A DNA stretch of 54,560 bases, from positions 1 through 54,560 of IMG/VR virus record IMGVR_UViG_3300032373_000010; one strand, given 5' to 3'. This document shows positions 2,171-37,067 of this stretch, one piece after another. Below the pieces are notes generated by a model, which worked only from the letters and a program-made list of their open reading frames with translations, was not told where the DNA came from and made no database searches. A program made the translations under genes and the position numbers. Numbering within the stretch: position 1 is the first letter of the stretch; each line of letters begins with the position of its first letter. Origin of the DNA: a virus (taxonomy: Duplodnaviria; Caudoviricetes).

Positions 2171-2488
2171 ATGCCCCTTAAAATCAACCTCGACAGCCTC
2201 AAGGAGGGCGTCAGCGACTCGATCGCTGAAGGCCTCCAGGGACTCGTCGAAGGAGCCAAAGAGGATCTGAAGGAGTTCGCCAAGGCGATCTCTGAGGACC
2301 TGCTTGAGGCCCACCTCGAAGGCGACGTTGACCTCCAGGGCCAGCTTGCCGACCAAGTCAAGATCCTCGCGGAGATCAACCGAGTGCGCGTCGAGGCCCA
2401 TGTTTGGGTCGTCGTCCAGAAGATCGCCAAGGTCGCGATCCAAGCCGCAGCCAAGGGCGCCGCAGCGGCGTTCCACGTCCCCCTTTAG
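2171..2488 (+). CDS. Hypothetical helical protein
   Basis: GGAGG RBS upstream; amphipathic helices; hydrophobic C-terminus. Confidence 0.75.
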   Translation: MPLKINLDSLKEGVSDSIAEGLQGLVEGAKEDLKEFAKAISEDLLEAHLEGDVDLQGQLADQVKILAEINRVRVEAHVWVVVQKIAKVAIQAAAKGAAAAFHVPL

Positions 2489-2499
2489 GAGGCAGCCAA

Positions 2500-2841
2500 A
2501 TGGCTATGTCCCCCAGCACCCGTCTCCACTTTGACCGCGCTTGCGGTCGCGCGCCCGGTCGCGTCTTCCCGAGCACCCGACACTACGCCTCCGCGTGGGG
2601 CCTCATGCTCGGCTTGGTCGTCCTGCTCCTCATGCTGACGGGCTGCGGCAGCCCCGGCTACGTGCGCGCGGACGCGATCGAGGGAACCGTCAAGCGGATC
2701 GCCGAGCGGCACGACGCCTACACGGTCGCGGCAGTCGCCAGCGGTCACGTCACCAAGAAGCAAGGCAAGGTGGACCTCCGGGACACCGCGCTGCTCCTGA
2801 AGCTGATCAAGACGGCCCAGGACAAAGGAGCAAAGAAGTGA
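2500..2841 (+). CDS. Putative lipoprotein (possible spanin-like lysis component)
   Basis: AGGAGG RBS before ATG 2500; hydrophobic stretch followed by lipobox LTG-C (LLLMLTGCGS). Confidence 0.7.
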   Translation: MAMSPSTRLHFDRACGRAPGRVFPSTRHYASAWGLMLGLVVLLLMLTGCGSPGYVRADAIEGTVKRIAERHDAYTVAAVASGHVTKKQGKVDLRDTALLLKLIKTAQDKGAKK

Positions 2842-31173: not shown

Positions 31174-31895
31174 TTCCTACCCGCTTCCCGTCGCAGTCTT
31201 GCCGCAGCCTTCTTCAGTTCGGACTGTCCCCACAAGGCCAGGCCAATCCCGTCCATGACGTGCTTCCAGTCGGCCTTATTGATCTTGCTTAGTTTGGCGA
31301 CCGGCACCTCCCCCGTGGGTCTGGCGTAGCCTGACATTACCTCGTAGTCCCACCCGAGGCTGTCCAGCAGCCTTGCGTGGTGGATCTCCTTAGGCACGCC
31401 GCCCTTCCATGTCTGCGGCTCCGCGACGACCACGATCGCGTCAGGCCAGACTGACAGGGCCGCCCCAGCCGCCATGCCGCCGCAGAAGGACACGTCCACG
31501 AGGCTCTGAGGGTTCTTGGTCGCGGCGTCGCTCTGAGCGCGCCTGATCCGCATGCCCTCGACGATCACGAGGACGCGCGCGGTCACGGAGAGTAGATTGT
31601 CTGCCTCTGTGAGAGCCTCCCGGCACTGCCGGAATACCTCTGGCCCGGCCTGCTGCGCCTTGAGGTCCTTGACGTGGGTGGTCGCGACCCAGGAGGGTCC
31701 GTGCAGCACCTCGAATCCCCCCATGCCGACGTTCTTGCAGTCGGGGTCGATCCCCACAATCAGATCGACTTCGCTCTGCGCGGCCAGCTCAAAGAGTTCC
31801 CGGTGGTGCGCTCGGTCGCTCGCGCCGCCCTTGTTGCTCTTGCGCTTGGCTTTCCCTCGGGACCAGCCCACCGGCTTGCCTGGGAAGGAGACCAC
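31170..31895 (-). CDS. RuvC-like Holliday junction resolvase
   Basis: IVGIDPD, VIVEG, PQTWKG and DGIGLA acidic RNase H-fold motifs. Confidence 0.8.
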   Translation of the reverse strand: MVSFPGKPVGWSRGKAKRKSNKGGASDRAHHRELFELAAQSEVDLIVGIDPDCKNVGMGGFEVLHGPSWVATTHVKDLKAQQAGPEVFRQCREALTEADNLLSVTARVLVIVEGMRIRRAQSDAATKNPQSLVDVSFCGGMAAGAALSVWPDAIVVVAEPQTWKGGVPKEIHHARLLDSLGWDYEVMSGYARPTGEVPVAKLSKINKADWKHVMDGIGLALWGQSELKKAAARLRREAGRK

Positions 31896-33493
31896 TAGAC
31901 CCCGCCCTTCGCAGCAGTCTCGAAGAACGCCTGGGCGTCGCCGCGCTTCCGGTCGGCGGCCTCCTTGAGGGGGTGATCCTCGATCTCGGCAGGCGCTCGC
32001 GGGTCACCGATCCACGCGGCACACTGCGCGTAGCCCGCCTGATCCACGAGGTTGTCAGGCTTGCGGCGCACCCGGTCGCGGAGGGCCCTCATAATCACGA
32101 GCATTTGGATCACGTCCCGCCCGTCGAGCTTCTTGAACCCGAGGTAGGAGGCCCAGGCTGAGGCGAGGCGCCCGTAGGTCTGGCGAGGGTCGCCGTAGTC
32201 GTGCGCCCTGTTGCCGCAGACAAGCTCCCGAGCCCGGTCCAGGCAGAAGGTCGTCTCGTGGATCTCCTCCTCGCCGTGGAGGCAGTTCTGCTGACCCAGG
32301 CGCTCGTGGAGCTGCCGAATGATCTTGCCGAAGCGCTCGCACTCTCCGCACTCAAAGCTGACCTCCGAGACGCTGCTGTTCTCCTCCCTGATCCTGCCGG
32401 AGCGCTTGATCTCTCCGCGCAGATCAGCCGTGAGCGCGTTGATCTGCCGCCGCATGTCGGTCGTGGCCTCGTTGTGCTTGCTGCGCTGCTCAGCGAGGGC
32501 CGCATTGAAGGCCTCTTGCGAGAGGGGGTGCTTGGCCTTGGCCAGCAGGTTCTCGACCCGCTGGAGTAGGGTTTGCCTGTGGCCCTCCAAGTATTCAAGC
32601 CGCTCGCCTTCCTTCTTGCTCTTGGCCTTCAGCTTGTCCAACTCCGAGGACATGCTGCGGATTCGCTCCCGAGCGCCTGGGTCGTGGGAGACCTTCTTGG
32701 CGTCGGCAAGCTCGGTCGTGAGCCGATCGACCTTCTTGTGCAATCGCCTAGCCTCCCCCTCGAAGGCGGCCCCGTCCTCGGCGGCCAGCACCCTAATGCG
32801 AATGATCTCTTTGTTTAGCGCCTGCTCCTGCTGCGTCAGGCGGGTGATCTCCTCCCGCAGCGAGGGCTCCACGTCAGGCCCCAATGCCCGCAACTCAGCC
32901 AGGGCCTTGCGCTGCTTAAGGTTGACCTCGGTCTTGGTGGCGAGTTCGGCGCCCCTCTGGTCGGAGCAGCGCCTGGTGTTCGCGTGATTGCTGCGCTCCA
33001 GCTTCAGTTCCTCCTCCAGGGCCTCGATCCTGTGCTGCCTGTCTCGGTTGATCTTCTTCTGATCGTTGGCCGCTCGGCCCCGACCCAGGGCCTCCTGGCC
33101 CCGCCTGGCGATCTGCCGGTCGCGGTCGTTGATCACGTCGCTCTGAGCCGTGATCGTCTGCTCAGCGTCGATCAGCGCCTTGGCCTGGTCGCGGACCAAT
33201 GACTCGGCCTGGGTTAGGCGGGCAGCGAGGCCCTCCTCGTCGCTCGGGAAGGGCCCATGCAGCTTCTGCTCGGCCCCCTCCCCAGCCACAATCAGGGTCT
33301 CGGCGGCCGGTTCTGGGAACGAGCCCCACAGCTTCTCGGGAGGCAAGGCAGGCCCGGTCGCGTGCTGCTCGCGATACACGTCGCAGGGGCAGTCCTGACC
33401 CTCCGTGCGCGCCAGGCAGGCATGCTGCTCGTTTGCGTGGGAGCCCCTCGGGTGGCCGCACCGGCAGATCCTGGTCTTGGTCTTCTGTTCCAT
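31895..33493 (-). CDS. Zn-finger + long coiled-coil + DUF6378-like protein
   Basis: N-terminal CRCGH..H..C..CPC; heptad repeats; C-terminal R..DYGDP...A.AW..YL...DV..M...R...DNLVDQAGYA. Confidence 0.75.
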   Translation of the reverse strand: MEQKTKTRICRCGHPRGSHANEQHACLARTEGQDCPCDVYREQHATGPALPPEKLWGSFPEPAAETLIVAGEGAEQKLHGPFPSDEEGLAARLTQAESLVRDQAKALIDAEQTITAQSDVINDRDRQIARRGQEALGRGRAANDQKKINRDRQHRIEALEEELKLERSNHANTRRCSDQRGAELATKTEVNLKQRKALAELRALGPDVEPSLREEITRLTQQEQALNKEIIRIRVLAAEDGAAFEGEARRLHKKVDRLTTELADAKKVSHDPGARERIRSMSSELDKLKAKSKKEGERLEYLEGHRQTLLQRVENLLAKAKHPLSQEAFNAALAEQRSKHNEATTDMRRQINALTADLRGEIKRSGRIREENSSVSEVSFECGECERFGKIIRQLHERLGQQNCLHGEEEIHETTFCLDRARELVCGNRAHDYGDPRQTYGRLASAWASYLGFKKLDGRDVIQMLVIMRALRDRVRRKPDNLVDQAGYAQCAAWIGDPRAPAEIEDHPLKEAADRKRGDAQAFFETAAKGGV

Positions 33494-33608: not shown

Positions 33609-34127
33609 TTACGCTTCGACGGGCTTCTCGGCGGCCTTCTTCCGAGCCTTGGCGCGGGCCAGGGCGTCGGCCTTCTTCTTGGCCGCCGTGTGGGCGGGCT
33701 TCGCAGTCGGCTTCGGCTTCGGCTTCTTGCCCGGCGCCTTCTTCTTGGCTGCGGCCTTCTTCTTCTTCGCGGGCGCCTTCTTCTTGGCTGCGGTCTTCTT
33801 CTTCGCGGGCGCCTTCTTCTTCTTGGCCGGCGCCTCAGAGGCCGGGACGCACGAGATCACCAGGCCGCCCGTGATCGAGGTGCGCTTGCGGAAGACGCAG
33901 CCCTTGGGTGCCTGAGGCTTGGCGTTACGCAGCGCCGAGTTCAAGCGGTTGTGGGCCTGCTTGGGGGTCACCCCGTCCTCGGCGGCCAGCTCCAGGGACT
34001 CACCCTCGGCGAGGCCCTTCATGGCCTCGATCAGCCCCGCATAGCGGCTGGGTCGCCCTGGGGACCGCTCCGCGAACTTGACGCTCTTGGTCTTCTTCTT
34101 CTTGTATTTGACTTTGGTATCGGTCAC
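33609..34127 (-). CDS. Histone H1-like basic DNA-binding protein
   Basis: C-terminal (A/P)AKKK repeats; GTGA overlap with polA. Confidence 0.8.
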   Translation of the reverse strand: MTDTKVKYKKKKTKSVKFAERSPGRPSRYAGLIEAMKGLAEGESLELAAEDGVTPKQAHNRLNSALRNAKPQAPKGCVFRKRTSITGGLVISCVPASEAPAKKKKAPAKKKTAAKKKAPAKKKKAAAKKKAPGKKPKPKPTAKPAHTAAKKKADALARAKARKKAAEKPVEA

Positions 34128-36292
34128 TTGTCTGCCTTCCAGGGGACTAGGCGCCCCTCAATGTAAACAGGCTCGGCTCGTTTATCCCAGCGCAGCATAA
34201 GGACCGGATCGGCCCTCGGCGTAACGTCTGGGGTAATGATCGACATGCACTCCACCATGATTCGGGCAACCTCGTGGGCAACCTCGTGAGCGCAGTCGAT
34301 CCTCGCCTCCCCAATCAACTCGTCGTGAATGAACAAAAGGGACCTGTGTCGGTCCCCTTGGTCGTCAGCATACAGAGTGGATCCGACATTAGCAAACGTG
34401 GCCTCTACTACGTCGCAGACAGCGAGCATGGCGCCCTCAGCAGACGGTGCTTGCAGTCCAGCGCCGTTGGCTGCGGCGCAATAGGCGGCCCCAGCCCGAT
34501 ACATGCCCAGCGGGGTAATGTAGGCGTAGCTGCCCTTATGGTGGGGGTCAGGGCAACTGTCGCTGATCCACTTGAGGTAGGGCGCCATTTCGGGGAAGCA
34601 CCTGTGCCAGACCTCACGCAACTCGCCAGCAAGCTCCTCGTCAACCTCGATCTTGTAAGTCGCGTGAGCATATTGGACGAACGTCTTGGGGCCTAGCCCA
34701 CCGGGGTAGCCCAGTCCTGTGGGCTTAGCGAAGGTCCGATAGTGCTTGTAGAACTTGCGAACCTCCTCCACGCCTGAGCGCTTGCACGCCATGAAAGCCT
34801 CGTAGAGGTCCTCCCCTTGAGGATCCGGGTTCTCCTCGATCACAGAGTCGTGGAAGTTGTCGTCGAGGAAGAAGGCGAGGTGAGCCCCGAGGTAGGAGTG
34901 CGCGTCCCAACCCCTGTTGATAACGTCCCGCAGCACGGAGAAGCCAAAGAGGTCGTAACACTTCTGCGCCAGCGTCCCCAGCTCCATGCCGCTGTAGTCA
35001 ACGCTGTAGAGGACGTAGGTCTCGCGGGGGACAATGCAGGCGCGCACCCGGGGGTGCGGGTTCTGGCAGTTCCACGAGGGGTATGCCTTGGAGGCGAAGG
35101 ACGAGGAGCGCCCGGTCTCCTTGAGGAAGTCGTAGTTGGCGTGCAGGACCGGCGCTACCTTGCCTGAGCCCTTCGGCCACTCCATGCGCGGCATGTCCGT
35201 CGTCACAAGTTTCTGCACCGCCTGTCGGCCCTGATACTGCGTCAGGATCGGACAGCGCCTGGCGTAGTCGTCGAGGAACTCCTTGTCCACTTGGAGGCTT
35301 CCCTTGTCGGTGTAGCGCAGGACTACGTCAGGGTGGTCCTTCTTGAGGTCCATGGCGACCCGGTAGAGCGCCTCTTTGTTGATCGACGCCTTCTTCGGCT
35401 TGGTCAGCTTGACTGGGCAGTCGCAGGGATCCTCCTTCTTGGTGGGTCTGGGGCAGTCGAAGTCATGCTCCTTGGCTCCGTTGGCCCACGGCTTCGGGGG
35501 GATTGCCGGGCGTAGGATCTCGTGCTCCACGAGGAGGCAGAGCTTCTCTGGGGTCAGGGCTTCGGCCAGCTCCTCTACGATCTTGGCGTGCTCCTCGGCG
35601 TCGGTGGCGACCCCCTTGATCGTCATGAGGTAGAAGCAGAAGCGGAGCAGGCAGCGGAAGCTCTCGACTTGGAGGGGGTCGATCCCGAGACGAAGCTCCA
35701 ACTCCGCCCGGCGAGCCTCCTGGGCGTGCCAGATCTGCACCGGGTAGACCGAGTCGAGGATCGAGTAGAGAACGGCTTCCTCGGGCCACTCGACCAGCGG
35801 CACGTCTTCGAGCACGTCGTAGTTGAGGCGCCATGCCTCGTCCTCACCCACCTCGCCGGGCTTGGCCTTCCCGACCATGGTGATCCCGAGATACAGCTCG
35901 GCCAGCGTGTCGAGCCCGTATTTCAGCTTCCGCTTTGATCCGTCTGGGTTGAAGGCGTATTCGAGGTCCCCCGTGTCGGCGAGGTTGAGGAGCTTCTCAC
36001 GAACTTGAATGTCGGAGGCGCGGCCCTCGCTGATCTCGCGGAAGATCAGCGGGTAGAGGTCTGGGGTCTCCTTGCAGGCTACAGCGAAGTCGAAAGCGAG
36101 GTTTGCCCCGACCTTGATCTGATCGGAGTCCAGAAGCTCCCGCATGAGGATCTCAAGGTCCCCGGCTTCGCGCGTGGCGAGTTCGGAGTCCTCGACGGTC
36201 CCGGTGGACGCCGAGAGGCAGACCGCACGAGGAGCGAGGTTCTCAGGGCCGAAGAGGTGCGTCTCGTAGTCGAGGCCGATTAGATTGGTCAT
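34124..36292 (-). CDS. polA: Family A DNA polymerase with 3'-5' exonuclease (atypical motif B)
   Basis: ExoI DYET, ExoII NLAFD, ExoIII YSILD, TGRSS, motif A DYSGMEL, motif B RTFAKPTGLGYPGG, motif C IHDE. Confidence 0.93.
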   Translation of the reverse strand: MTNLIGLDYETHLFGPENLAPRAVCLSASTGTVEDSELATREAGDLEILMRELLDSDQIKVGANLAFDFAVACKETPDLYPLIFREISEGRASDIQVREKLLNLADTGDLEYAFNPDGSKRKLKYGLDTLAELYLGITMVGKAKPGEVGEDEAWRLNYDVLEDVPLVEWPEEAVLYSILDSVYPVQIWHAQEARRAELELRLGIDPLQVESFRCLLRFCFYLMTIKGVATDAEEHAKIVEELAEALTPEKLCLLVEHEILRPAIPPKPWANGAKEHDFDCPRPTKKEDPCDCPVKLTKPKKASINKEALYRVAMDLKKDHPDVVLRYTDKGSLQVDKEFLDDYARRCPILTQYQGRQAVQKLVTTDMPRMEWPKGSGKVAPVLHANYDFLKETGRSSSFASKAYPSWNCQNPHPRVRACIVPRETYVLYSVDYSGMELGTLAQKCYDLFGFSVLRDVINRGWDAHSYLGAHLAFFLDDNFHDSVIEENPDPQGEDLYEAFMACKRSGVEEVRKFYKHYRTFAKPTGLGYPGGLGPKTFVQYAHATYKIEVDEELAGELREVWHRCFPEMAPYLKWISDSCPDPHHKGSYAYITPLGMYRAGAAYCAAANGAGLQAPSAEGAMLAVCDVVEATFANVGSTLYADDQGDRHRSLLFIHDELIGEARIDCAHEVAHEVARIMVECMSIITPDVTPRADPVLMLRWDKRAEPVYIEGRLVPWKADK

Positions 36293-36293
36293 A

Positions 36294-36422
36294 TGGTCCT
36301 TCGGGGAGTCGAACCCCGCCTCTAAGCACAGACTTACGCGAGTCCCTCCACAGGGGTAGCGTTCCGGGAGTCGAACCCAGCCTCACAGCAACGGCCTAGC
36401 GCTCACCCCGAGCTAAGGACCA
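36294..36422 (-). ncRNA. tRNA-like RNA with two T-arms and a large insertion in place of the anticodon loop
   Basis: Acceptor GGTCCTT/AAGGACC+A; D-stem GCTC/GAGC; stem CTAGGC/GCTTAG; T-arms CTGGG-TTCGACT-CCCGG and CGGGG-TTCGACT-CCCCG. Confidence 0.65.
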
Positions 36423-36494
36423 AGTGCCGACTTTGATAAGGGCGTCGGCGGGCCCTTGCGCTTTCTTGTCCCCTTCCGGGGAACCCCAGTGCGC

Positions 36495-37067
36495 CTACTC
36501 TTCGAGCGAGGCCTCGTATTCGATCAACTCGTCCAGCGCCGAGCCCGGGAAGAATGCCTCCTTCTCGTCGTCGCTGAGGATCTCCGCCAGCTCGATCGCG
36601 GGGACCTCGCGCTGGTAGTTGATCTTCGTGAAGGGCTTGCTCGCCCGGGTCTCGATAATCCGGTTCTTGACCTCAATGTAGGTCCCGCAGAGCGGCTGAT
36701 CGTCGTCGAGGATCGCGTAGAAGTTCTCCTCGGTCACGTCGTTCTCGGGCAGCCCGAGGATCTTCGACAAGAATGCCTTGACGTTGCCCAGGAAGCTGTC
36801 GTGCTTCGTCCACATGGAGTGGCACGGGCTTTCGCCGACCTTGTGGCCGTCCCCGTCGTCGTCGTCGAAGACGTGAATGATCGTCTTTTCGACGAACAGG
36901 CCGACGCCGCTCTTGCGGGTGTCGTCCATTTTCACGAAGTCGATCCGCTGGAGATAGTGTCCAGCCTTCTCCCAGTTGGAGTCAAGGGAGGCCTTGGCGT
37001 CCTTGAGCCCCTTGGCGTGCTTGCGTGCGAGTTCAAGGCTTCGCTGGCCTTTGGTCATTTCAGTCAT
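36495..37067 (-). CDS. Putative single-stranded DNA-binding protein
   Basis: Position between helicase and polA; beta-rich core; acidic C-terminal tail; AAGG RBS. Confidence 0.6.
   Translation of the reverse strand: MTEMTKGQRSLELARKHAKGLKDAKASLDSNWEKAGHYLQRIDFVKMDDTRKSGVGLFVEKTIIHVFDDDDGDGHKVGESPCHSMWTKHDSFLGNVKAFLSKILGLPENDVTEENFYAILDDDQPLCGTYIEVKNRIIETRASKPFTKINYQREVPAIELAEILSDDEKEAFFPGSALDELIEYEASLEE

What the first reader, a model, noticed from the sequence alone, without database searches (positions are those of the whole stretch)
36294..36422. Double-T-arm tRNA mimic whose acceptor stem covers the polymerase ribosome-binding site
Seen (- strand): GGTCCTT-A-GCTC-GGGGT-GAGC-G-CTAGGC-[66-nt insert]-GCTTAG-AGG-CGGGG-TTCGACT-CCCCG-AAGGACC-A-T-ATG(polA). 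The acceptor, D-stem, anticodon-stem equivalent and T-arm all pair. The anticodon loop is replaced by an insert holding a second T-arm (CTGGG-TTCGACT-CCCGG) stacked on a CGTT/AACG helix, plus two small hairpins (CCT-GTGG-AGG; GACT-CGCGTA-AGTC). No usable anticodon is present. The only SD-like sequence for polA (AAGGA, 4 nt before ATG) is the 3' strand of the acceptor stem. Inference: an undescribed structured RNA, either a cis switch or processing signal controlling polA translation (RNase P/Z cleavage would leave a nearly leaderless mRNA), or a trans tRNA decoy against anticodon nucleases and tRNA-binding defences, or a Y-RNA-like scaffold.
Basis: partly seen in the sequence, partly recalled or inferred. 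Interest (0 to 1): 0.85.

Follow-up and report, generated by a model that had tools for sequence, protein, structure and literature searches.

The report
Two-T-arm tRNA-like element before polA
Right in front of its DNA polymerase gene this phage carries a tRNA-shaped RNA gene whose anticodon is replaced by an insert holding a second T-arm, so it cannot decode and most likely acts as a tRNA-like processing signal or a small RNA of unknown role.

Summary
On the - strand, 36421..36294 is a 128-nt tRNA-shaped element. It has a 7-bp acceptor stem, a D-arm, a 6-bp anticodon-stem equivalent, a canonical T-arm and A73. A 66-nt insert replaces the anticodon loop and holds a second T-arm and two small hairpins. 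The polA ATG follows 1 nt later.

It is tRNA-derived but not a working tRNA. ARAGORN (default) and Rfam find nothing. ARAGORN in intron mode forces a tRNA-Gln(CUG) with a 61-nt "intron" and U37. There is no BHB motif, no group I intron and no phage-encoded RNA ligase.

The start of the insert is a near-copy (26 of 31 nt) of the gene's own 3' part, so it arose by partial internal duplication.

Related phages carry ordinary tRNAs or other expanded tRNA-like shells in the same intergenic slot. IMG/VR holds many two-T-arm tRNA-like elements closed by one acceptor stem. One 93-nt subfamily is 95% conserved between unrelated flanks.

No close homologue of this element could be fetched, so there is no covariation and no expression evidence. 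Thermodynamic folding supports only the acceptor stem and the 3' T-arm.

Best guess (0.4): it is matured like a tRNA by RNase P/Z, which punctuates the transcript just before polA. The main rivals are a neutral relic and a translational attenuator that sequesters the SD. Interest is moderate.

The parts
36294..36421 (-). whole tRNA-like element, 128 nt including discriminator A36294; T36422 can pair with A36294
36415..36421 (-). acceptor 5' strand GGTCCTT
   Evidence: pairing probability 0.59-1.0
36401..36413 (-). D-arm GCTC-GGGGT-GAGC (short loop containing GG)
   Evidence: The same 13-mer forms the D-arm of a phage tRNA-like gene in L254. Ensemble probability 0.01
36394..36399 (-). anticodon-stem equivalent, 5' strand CTAGGC (pairs with 36322-36327)
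   Evidence: ensemble probability 0.0
36328..36393 (-). 66-nt insert that replaces the anticodon loop
36360..36390 (-). 31-nt copy 1 (anticodon-stem 3' strand-like, variable loop, T-arm 1, AACG), paralogous to 36298-36328
   Evidence: 26 of 31 identical. Only 33 of 15,072 within-contig pairs of phage tRNAs reach that level
36364..36380 (-). T-arm 1 CTGGG-TTCGACT-CCCGG
   Evidence: Its second stem pair is T.G where T-arm 2 has G-C, so both sides are changed
36345..36354 (-). small hairpin CCT-GTGG-AGG (D-arm-like, GG in the loop)
   Evidence: A GG-loop hairpin between the two T-arms is seen in 22 of 24 two-T-arm elements against 11.3 expected from shuffles
36331..36344 (-). hairpin GACT-CGCGTA-AGTC
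   Evidence: probability 0.53-0.58
36322..36327 (-). anticodon-stem equivalent, 3' strand GCTTAG
36302..36318 (-). T-arm 2 CGGGG-TTCGACT-CCCCG
   Evidence: probability 0.79-0.92
36295..36301 (-). acceptor 3' strand AAGGACC, which contains the SD-like AAGGA of polA
34124..36292 (-). polA (722 aa, family A polymerase with 3'-5' exonuclease). The ATG lies 1 nt after the discriminator
36423..36494 (-). 72-nt leader between the upstream 190-aa gene and the element. It holds small hairpins but no sigma-70-like promoter or intrinsic terminator on this strand
   Evidence: a homologue lies upstream of polA in 85 related loci

Best explanation
This is a tRNA-gene derivative that can no longer decode. 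It keeps the parts that tRNA-maturation enzymes read: a 7-bp acceptor stem stacked on a 5-bp T-stem with a canonical T-loop, a D-loop with GG, and A73.

Its anticodon loop has been replaced by a 66-nt insert. The insert begins with a copy of the gene's own 3' part and continues with two small hairpins.

My reading of how it works (inferred): it is transcribed inside the long leftward replication operon. Host RNase P cuts between 36422 and 36421. RNase Z or an equivalent 3' activity cuts after A36294. This releases a stable two-T-arm tRNA-like RNA of about 128 nt and separates the upstream message from polA. The polA mRNA is then left with a 1-nt leader, as in 'tRNA punctuation'.

Shown: the anatomy, the tRNA origin, the internal duplication, the lack of a usable anticodon, and the existence of similar two-T-arm elements as conserved units in other phages. 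Inferred: transcription, cleavage, stability, and any trans function of the released RNA.
For: Anatomy and origin
- The anatomy is present and the shell is very unlikely by chance.
- The 31-nt segments around the two T-arms are 26/31 identical, in the top 33 of 15,072 phage tRNA pairs. One stem pair is changed on both sides.

A tRNA slot in relatives
- 12 of 111 distinct upstream regions show a T-loop-like motif.
- ARAGORN finds tRNA-Met, Asn and Arg in L099, L128, L129, L143 and L193.
- Expanded, anticodon-less shells occur in L152 (124 nt, 31 nt before the polA ATG; RF00005 39.2 bits through acceptor, D and T only) and in L099 (101 nt with two T-arms).

A wider class in IMG/VR
- Of 122 sites with two T-loops 42-70 nt apart, 23 are closed by a 7-bp acceptor stem around both arms. 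Offset controls from +2 to +30 gave 1-7.
- 22 of 24 carry a GG-loop hairpin between the arms, against 11.3 expected.
- One 93-nt two-T-arm subfamily (32 stretches, 13 variants) is 95% identical pairwise, while its 150-nt flanks are 59%. Such elements can therefore be discrete, conserved RNA genes whose borders lie at the acceptor ends.

Processing precedent

Stability of the sequence
- The element is unchanged in a second mat metagenome whose contig differs at 5 places in polA.
Against: - No homologue of this element was found, so there is no covariation test. The searches were blastn against phages, a D-arm/T-arm pattern and an acceptor pattern.
- Nearest-neighbour folding gives no signal: z -0.5. 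It prefers a fold in which D, AC, CGTT/AACG and T-arm 1 do not form.
- RF00005 does not match even at E up to 10.
- Nothing shows that this stretch is cleaved or accumulates as a separate RNA.
- The acceptor 3' strand keeps an SD-type motif (AAGGACCA) like that of polA in relatives (AAGGAYCA in L099, L111, L118, L119, L186). This would be pointless if the leader were cut off, and it fits the SD-sequestration rival better.
- Whether the unknown host translates a 1-nt-leader mRNA is unknown.
- Perfect helices may simply mean that the duplication is recent.
Confidence: 0.4

Rival explanations
1. Neutral relic. A phage tRNA gene in the tRNA slot before polA suffered a partial internal duplication or rearrangement and is now a non-functional pseudo-tRNA, tolerated because it does no harm.
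For: - Internal duplication is shown.
- No homologue or conservation was found for this element.
- There is no thermodynamic signal.
- Aberrant tRNA-like genes are common in this phage group: L099, L120, L152, L175, L197.
- The slot is variable: 68 distinct intergenic lengths from 0 to 2504 nt.
Against: - All shell helices and T-arm 1 pair perfectly, and the one stem difference between the two T-arms keeps pairing.
- Two-T-arm elements elsewhere are strongly conserved against unrelated flanks.
- The phage is tightly packed, so 128 nt of junk abutting an essential start codon is unexpected.
Confidence: 0.25
2. Cis-acting attenuator. The tRNA-like fold locks the polA SD (AAGGA) into the acceptor stem and limits or times polymerase translation. 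Opening of the stem, or an alternative fold, lets ribosomes in.
For: - The SD-like motif lies inside the acceptor stem, whose six outer pairs have probability 0.96-1.0.
- AAGGA is the usual SD type of this phage and of polA in relatives, at similar short spacing. This suggests the motif is used as an SD.
- There is a precedent for a structured operator overlapping the RBS of a phage DNA polymerase gene: T4/RB69 gp43 (passages of PMC3014915).
- An alternative MFE fold exists that uses the D-arm and T-arm 1 regions.
Against: - The opening energy of -15..+6 is 9.6 kcal/mol, rank 21 of 54 genes, so it is not an outlier.
- In relatives that carry tRNA(-like) genes here, the gene ends 31 to about 200 nt before the ATG and polA has its own free SD. 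RBS overlap is therefore not a conserved feature.
- A simple hairpin would do the job; a full tRNA shell with a canonical T-loop is not needed.
Confidence: 0.2
3. Trans-acting decoy or sponge. The matured two-elbow RNA binds host factors that read the tRNA elbow or T-arm, or tRNA-targeting defence nucleases, and so protects translation.
For: - There are two T-arms, each with a possible GG-loop partner.
- A recurrent class of such RNAs occurs in phages, partly inside tRNA arrays: 12 of 23.
- There is no anticodon to be cut.
Against: - There is no direct evidence.
- No defence or counter-defence genes were linked to it.
- No partner gene is conserved next to the related AGTCAGG family: 81 clusters among 94 downstream ORFs.
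- This reading overlaps with the best explanation, being its optional trans role.
Confidence: 0.1
4. Intron-containing tRNA-Gln(CUG). The 61-nt insert is removed and the 69-nt product decodes CAG.
For: ARAGORN with introns allowed reports tRNA-Gln(ctg) of 69 nt plus a 61-nt intron.
Against: - The intron sits after position 32, and the product has U37 instead of a purine.
- The two possible junction pairs give no bulge-helix-bulge motif (read).
- 61 nt is far too short for a group I intron, and Rfam finds none.
- The phage has no RtcB or Rnl-type ligase.
- Relatives show bacterial-type terminators and SD motifs.
- No spliced DNA form was seen in 3 metagenomes.
Confidence: 0.04

Closest known systems
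Phage-encoded tRNA genes and pseudo-tRNAs
   Same: It has an acceptor stem, D-arm, T-arm with TTCGA loop and A73. It sits in a slot where relatives carry tRNA-Met, Asn or Arg.
   Different: There is no 7-nt anticodon loop with U33/R37. It is 128 nt long with a second T-arm. RF00005 and ARAGORN default do not call it.
tRNA punctuation of mitochondrial transcripts, and mascRNA/MALAT1-type tRNA-like processing signals (listings of PMC10941002 and PMC11996679, and of PMC8457004; the mechanism itself is recalled)
   Same: A tRNA-shaped structure abuts the next coding region, so RNase P/Z cuts would define the mRNA ends and leave an almost leaderless message. The best tRNA-like among the below-threshold Rfam matches is mascRNA-menRNA (18.4 bits, E 0.27).
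   Different: This is a bacterial virus. Cleavage is not shown. The element is much larger and has two T-arms. The Rfam score is far below the gathering score of 42.5.
YrlA / bacterial Y RNAs with a tRNA-like domain (PMC4201824, abstract and passages)
   Same: It is a non-decoding RNA that mimics the tRNA D/T/acceptor parts. One YrlA is cut by RNase P and receives CCA. YrlA RNAs are also found in phages.
   Different: YrlA is encoded next to Ro60 and carries a Ro-binding stem. Here there is no TROVE gene and no RF02553 match, and the topology differs because the ends lie in the acceptor stem.
Engineered 'tRNA scaffold' RNAs, in which a foreign RNA is inserted in place of the anticodon arm (listing of PMC3753655; details recalled)
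   Same: A tRNA shell with a foreign structured insert at the anticodon stem, expected to be matured and stabilised like a tRNA.
   Different: This one is natural, the insert is partly a copy of the shell's own T-arm region, and its function is unknown.
T4/RB69 gp43 translational operator (PMC3014915, passages)
   Same: A structured RNA overlapping the ribosome-binding site of a phage DNA polymerase gene.
   Different: The gp43 operator is a 16-18-nt hairpin bound by a family B polymerase. Here the structure is a tRNA shell and the polymerase is family A. Binding is untested.
tmRNA tRNA-like domain
   Same: An acceptor stem and T-arm with a large non-tRNA body in between, and no anticodon.
   Different: ARAGORN tmRNA mode finds nothing. 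Positions 3:70 are U-A and not G-U. At 128 nt it has no pseudoknots and no credible tag frame.

Membership tests
canonical tRNA (Rfam RF00005 / ARAGORN) | 7-bp acceptor stem with discriminator, D-arm, and T-arm with TTCRA loop | tested here: met
canonical tRNA (Rfam RF00005 / ARAGORN) | 5-bp anticodon stem closing a 7-nt loop with U33 and purine 37 | tested here: not met
   The 6-bp stem closes a 66-nt insert. Only removal of 61 nt gives a loop, and that loop has U37.
canonical tRNA (Rfam RF00005 / ARAGORN) | score at or above the family threshold | tested here: not met
   No RF00005 match at gathering score or at E up to 10. ARAGORN default reports 0 genes.
intron-containing tRNA (archaeal BHB type) | bulge-helix-bulge motif at both junctions | tested here: not met
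   Both junction pairs that give U33 were checked by hand on the sequence. The 4-bp central helix cannot form.
intron-containing tRNA (bacterial group I type) | group I ribozyme core inside the insert | tested here: not met
   The insert is 61-66 nt and there is no Rfam intron match.
intron-containing tRNA (any protein-spliced type) | an RNA ligase available from the phage | tested here: not met
   No RtcB and no RNA_ligase in the complete genome. The host's enzymes are unknown.
tmRNA | G3:U70, tag reading frame, detection by ARAGORN -m | tested here: not met
   positions 3:70 are U-A
YrlA / Y RNA | RF02553 match and a neighbouring Ro60 (TROVE) gene | tested here: not met
attP copy of a host tRNA 3' half | an integrase in the phage | tested here: not met
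   No PF00589 or PF00239 match in the complete genome.
RNase P / RNase Z substrate (tRNA-like processing signal) | acceptor stem of 7 bp stacked on a 5-bp T-stem with a T-loop, and a single-stranded 3' trailer | tested here: met
   Sequence. The two helices are the only ones with high ensemble probability.
RNase P / RNase Z substrate (tRNA-like processing signal) | actual cleavage at -1/+1 and after position 73 | not testable with these tools
   No RNA run holds the stretch.
phage two-T-arm tRNA-like elements (provisional class defined here) | one 7-bp acceptor stem closing two T-arms | tested here: met
   Window. Class: 23 of 122 sites against 1-7 in offset controls.
phage two-T-arm tRNA-like elements (provisional class defined here) | a small hairpin with GG in its loop between the two T-arms | tested here: met
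   CCT-GTGG-AGG in the window. 22 of 24 against 11.3 expected (lenient criterion).
phage two-T-arm tRNA-like elements (provisional class defined here) | sequence homology to any other member | tested here: not met
   No alignable relative was found. The likeness is in architecture only.
gp43-type translational operator | binding of the polymerase to the RNA that overlaps its RBS | not testable with these tools
   Only the overlap with the SD is seen.

The most novel reading that the evidence does not exclude
The element belongs to an undescribed class of phage-encoded 'two-elbow' tRNA mimics. In this class, two D-loop/T-loop modules sit inside a single acceptor stem. The RNAs are matured by RNase P/Z like tRNAs and act in trans. 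They might be charged or uncharged decoys or sponges for factors that read the tRNA elbow, T-arm or acceptor end, such as tRNA-targeting defence nucleases, modification or maturation enzymes, or the ribosome. In this phage the gene has also been fused to the polA start, so its maturation sets polymerase expression.
Probability: 0.2. Interest if true: 0.8.

Novelty: new variant of a known kind. Interest (0 to 1): 0.55.

Why it matters
Phage tRNA genes are usually read as codon-supply or anti-defence cargo. Elements that fail tRNA detectors are dropped as pseudogenes. This case, together with the many two-T-arm and anticodon-less shells seen in IMG/VR while following it, suggests that phages keep tRNA-shaped RNAs that cannot decode.

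If these RNAs are matured and stable, they would be a natural counterpart of the engineered tRNA scaffold. They would also be a new place to look for counter-defence or regulatory RNAs.

For this phage specifically, the fusion of the acceptor end to the polA start makes a clean test bed for one question: does tRNA-type processing or SD sequestration control a replication gene in a bacterial virus?

Tried and rejected
Detectors
- ARAGORN default and tmRNA modes found nothing.
- Rfam found nothing at gathering score. At E up to 10 it gave only weak chance-level matches: epsC 23.1 bits, mascRNA 18.4 bits.

Search for homologues
- blastn of 1.1 kb against 50,697 phage records: no match.
- tblastn of PolA there: 1 record at 26.6% identity.
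- Single-protein locus search in IMG/VR: none.
- D-arm/T-arm pattern: 1 unrelated tRNA-like gene, L254.
- Acceptor pattern with an 85-115 nt gap: 0.

Sequencing runs
- No RNA holder is listed.
- Three DNA contig sets from microbial-mat metagenomes were laid. There were no variants, indels or joints in the element, so they say nothing on covariation or splicing.
- X3 has no cover over 36037-36304.

Readings rejected
- attP: no integrase.
- Y RNA.
- tmRNA.
- Archaeal-type intron: no BHB. Relatives have bacterial-type terminators (by eye in L107, L109, L119) and SD motifs.
- Phage-borne tRNA repair or splicing: no RtcB, RNA ligase or CCA-adding enzyme.
- Tandem duplication of a whole 62-nt unit: only the 31-nt segment is alike, and the neighbouring 31 nt are not (by eye).
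- Unusual closure of the polA start: not an outlier.
- A conserved partner gene for the AGTCAGG family: none.

Literature
- Searches found no description of tRNA-like RNAs with two T-arms or of anticodon-less tRNA shells in phages.
- PMC10690425 (abstract and passages) mentions tRNA-like candidates in viruses only in general terms. Its supplementary tables, which I could not see, may list some of these elements.

Tool problems
Full report
WHAT IS THERE

The window is a complete 54,560-bp virus genome with direct terminal repeats and about 64% G+C. Genes are tightly packed, mostly on the - strand from 9.7 to 51.8 kb.

There is a 202-nt gap between a conserved 190-aa gene (36495-37067) and polA (34124-36292; family A polymerase plus 3'-5' exonuclease).
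- acceptor GGTCCTT/AAGGACC
- A
- D-arm GCTC-GGGGT-GAGC
- G
- CTAGGC ... GCTTAG enclosing 66 nt
- AGG
- T-arm CGGGG-TTCGACT-CCCCG
- A73
- T, then ATG

The insert holds CGTT/AACG around a second T-arm (CTGGG-TTCGACT-CCCGG), then CCT-GTGG-AGG and GACT-CGCGTA-AGTC. No ORF of 50 aa or more covers the element.

A strict scan for acceptor + T-arm + TTCRA loop finds this element. It finds only 1 hit in about 1.7 Mb of reversed or complemented control sequence. The tRNA shape is therefore not chance.

WHAT THE STANDARD TOOLS SAY

- ARAGORN default: 0 genes in the window.
- Rfam: nothing at gathering score. At E up to 10 on 321 nt it gives only junk-level matches and no RF00005.
- ARAGORN with introns allowed reports tRNA-Gln(ctg), 69 nt, with a 61-nt intron after position 32 and U at position 37.

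Only two cut-pairs can give a 7-nt loop with U33. For neither can the 4-bp central helix of a bulge-helix-bulge motif form (checked by hand). Sixty-one nt cannot be a group I intron. The phage has no RtcB, no Rnl-type ligase and no CCA-adding enzyme. I rate a spliced tRNA at about 4%.

FOLDING

In the ensemble, six of the seven acceptor pairs have probability 0.96-1.0 (the innermost 0.59) and T-arm 2 has 0.79-0.92. D, CTAGGC/GCTTAG, CGTT/AACG and T-arm 1 are at most 0.06. The MFE is no better than shuffles (z -0.5).

Nearest-neighbour models ignore tRNA tertiary contacts. This weakens the detailed fold but does not disprove it.

ORIGIN

The 31 nt around T-arm 1 (36390-36360) and around T-arm 2 (36328-36298) are identical at 26 of 31 positions. 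Their mean is 16.1 (sd 2.9), and only 33 pairs reach 26.

The insert therefore starts with a copy of the gene's own 3' part: anticodon-stem 3' strand, variable loop, T-arm and the first 4 nt of the acceptor. Two of the five differences fall on one stem pair and keep it paired (T.G against G-C).

The phage has no integrase, so an attP-type tRNA fragment is excluded.

RELATIVES

No close relative could be fetched. The nearest PolA proteins (56-66% identical) come from collections I could not read.

I collected 153 loci with more distant PolA (29-51% identity) from metagenomes and IMG/VR, and 3 from MAGs. Their best-segment identities to the window's PolA are 41% (Planctomycetota), 45% (unnamed bacterium) and 29% (Phycisphaerales). 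This is only a weak host hint.

The 190-aa gene lies upstream of polA in 85 of these loci. The gap between the two genes varies from 0 to 2504 nt across 68 distinct cases. Many short gaps hold a terminator-like hairpin and an AAGGA-type SD (by eye).

Twelve of 111 distinct upstream regions show a T-loop-like motif. ARAGORN finds ordinary tRNA-Met (L099, L128, L129), tRNA-Asn (L143) and tRNA-Arg (L193) there.

Aberrant shells also occur:
- L152 is 124 nt and ends 31 nt before the polA ATG. It matches RF00005 at 39.2 bits only through its acceptor, D and T parts.
- L099 has a 101-nt element with two T-arms inside one acceptor stem, about 200 nt before polA. RF00005 does not match it.
- L175 (108 nt) and L197 (159 nt, ending ACCA) lie elsewhere in their loci.
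- L120 has a tRNA-Met-like gene with an odd D-arm and loop.

The spot is thus a tRNA cargo slot in this phage group, and a sizeable share of the cargo is non-canonical. None of these elements aligns with the window's insert, so no covariation test was possible.

Three microbial-mat DNA data sets hold the phage. One independent contig differs at 5 places, all inside polA, and at none in the element. No indel or joint was seen. This carries little information.

A WIDER CLASS

A pattern for two exact T-loop 13-mers first showed nested cases in unrelated viral contigs: L009, L017, L057, L091. Rfam has no family for them.

Among 122 distinct sites:
- 23 are closed by a 7-bp acceptor stem (at least 6 Watson-Crick pairs) around both T-arms. 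When the 3' strand is read at offsets of +2 to +30, only 1-7 close.
- 44 are an ordinary tRNA followed by an extra T-arm.

Of the 23 closed elements, 12 lie within 2 kb of tRNA genes on the same strand and 11 are solitary. ARAGORN calls overlap only 3 of them. Between the two T-arms, 22 of 24 elements (window included) have a small hairpin with GG in the loop, against 11.3 expected from shuffles. The criterion was lenient. The window's CCT-GTGG-AGG fits.

One subfamily has acceptor AGTCAGG/CCTGACT, is 93 nt long and was found in 32 stretches as 13 variants. I compared 12 of the 13 variants; one was dropped for lack of upstream flank. Pairwise identity is 95%, while the 150-nt flanks are 59-60%. 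Two-T-arm tRNA-like elements can therefore be discrete, conserved genes whose borders lie at the acceptor ends.

The likeness to the window is in architecture, not in sequence.

THE RBS QUESTION

SD use in this genome is weak. Where an SD is present it is of the AAGGA type. polA of the nearer relatives has AAGGAYCA 1-4 nt before the start codon: L099, L111, L118, L119 and L186, with near variants in L101, L107 and L109. The window has AAGGACCA-T-ATG.

So the acceptor 3' strand carries a plausible, probably functional SD that the fold would bury. However, the computed cost of opening -15..+6 is 9.6 kcal/mol, which ranks 21st of 54 genes. In relatives the tRNA(-like) gene does not overlap the SD.

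I therefore keep SD sequestration as a serious rival (0.2) but not as the lead.

MECHANISM I COMMIT TO (0.4)

The two helices that the energy model does support form the acceptor/T minihelix. This is the part that RNase P and RNase Z read; my knowledge of that is recalled. [quoted passage not shown] It also shows a non-decoding tRNA-like RNA that is cut by M1 RNA and receives CCA.

I infer that the element is excised like a tRNA from the operon transcript. This would leave polA mRNA starting at U36293, 1 nt before the AUG. That is the arrangement known from mitochondrial tRNA punctuation (listings only; mechanism recalled).

Whether the released two-T-arm RNA does anything in trans is open. 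Cleavage, stability and translation of a near-leaderless polA are all inferred.

The main alternative is a neutral relic of a duplicated tRNA gene (0.25).

KNOWN FAMILIES

- It is not a member of tRNA: the anticodon arm and the score both fail.
- It is not tmRNA.
- It is not YrlA: there is no RF02553 match and no Ro60 gene.
- It is not an attP fragment.
- It works most like a tRNA-like processing signal, and it is built like an engineered tRNA scaffold.
- The T4/RB69 gp43 operator (PMC3014915, passages) is the precedent for RNA structure at a phage polymerase RBS, but it is unrelated in form.

Five literature searches found no description of two-T-arm tRNA-like RNAs. Supplements of PMC10690425 were not visible and may list some.

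VERDICT

This is a new variant of a known kind (phage tRNA-derived, tRNA-like RNA). The specific element is a singleton with no conservation or expression data, which limits the claim. The recurrent class seen while following it is the more interesting lead. Interest 0.55.

Noticed in passing
IMG/VR loci L375-L488 and others, e.g. L380:284-368, 524-626, 2002-2095, 2407-2517 (- strand): A large family of 84-114-nt tRNA-shaped genes. The shell is conserved: acceptor AGTCAGG/CCTGACT+A, a tRNA-Leu-type D-arm TGGCGGAAT.GGTA.ACGC, and T-arm ACAGGTTCGAATCCTGT. The middle, 33-63 nt, is hypervariable. A canonical anticodon arm is found in 0 of 127 (strict) and 4 of 127 (relaxed), against 58-82% of control tRNAs. 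ARAGORN of 127, with scattered anticodons. Up to 4 copies occur per contig. No partner gene is conserved. Some members pass RF00005 at 39-50 bits.
   Followed up: partly
L359:1397-1489 (+) and 12 further variants (L331, L474, L483, L490, L492, L494, L496, L499, L502, L508, L509, L515): A 93-nt two-T-arm subfamily of the AGTCAGG family. Its order is acceptor, T-arm 1, hairpin GTCA-TGGA-TGAC, hairpin GGG-TAGCT-CCC, T-arm 2, acceptor. Pairwise identity is 95%, against 59% in the 150-nt flanks. Variation is concentrated in the first small hairpin, with some compensatory changes and some mismatches.
   Followed up: partly
IMG/VR loci L255-L374: At 44 of 122 sites with two close T-loops, an ordinary tRNA is followed within a few tens of nt by an extra T-arm. 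This is often a minihelix-like acceptor + T-arm unit or a tRNA 3' fragment, sometimes in arrays (L311; also L003, L018, L035, L058).
   Followed up: no
L333 (+), 97-nt element: A two-T-arm element with acceptor GGGCGGT/ACCGTCC. This gives a G3:U70 pair, with A73 and an encoded CCA, which together are the alanine identity set (recalled). It lies in a tRNA array.
   Followed up: no
L152:2848-2972; L175:591-699; L197:2325-2484; L120 about 2780-2850: Other non-canonical tRNA-like genes in phages with related PolA. L152 has a partial repeat of its T-stem region inside its long middle. L175 has an 8-bp hairpin with a 4-nt loop where the anticodon arm should be. L197 is 159 nt and ends ACCA. L120 is tRNA-Met-like with an unusual D-arm and a loop lacking U33.
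   Followed up: partly
window 36423-36494 (- strand): The leader before the element holds overlapping hairpins: TCCCC-GGAA-GGGGA, AAGGGC...GCCCTT and GCCGAC...GTCGGC. Together with T-arm 1 it gives a weak, below-threshold match to epsC RNA (23.1 bits, E 0.052, gathering score 42). It has no sigma-70-like promoter or terminator on this strand.
   Followed up: no
It is nevertheless a conserved upstream neighbour of polA in 85 related loci.
   Followed up: partly
window 31895-33493 (- strand): A 532-aa protein with a C-terminal DUF6378 domain. PHROGs labels the matching families 'phosphofructokinase'.
   Followed up: no
L251, L253: Two of the three genome-collection contigs with a related PolA are binned in MAGs labelled Planctomycetota and Phycisphaerales. 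Together with the weak SD use in the window this is a faint host hint.
   Followed up: no
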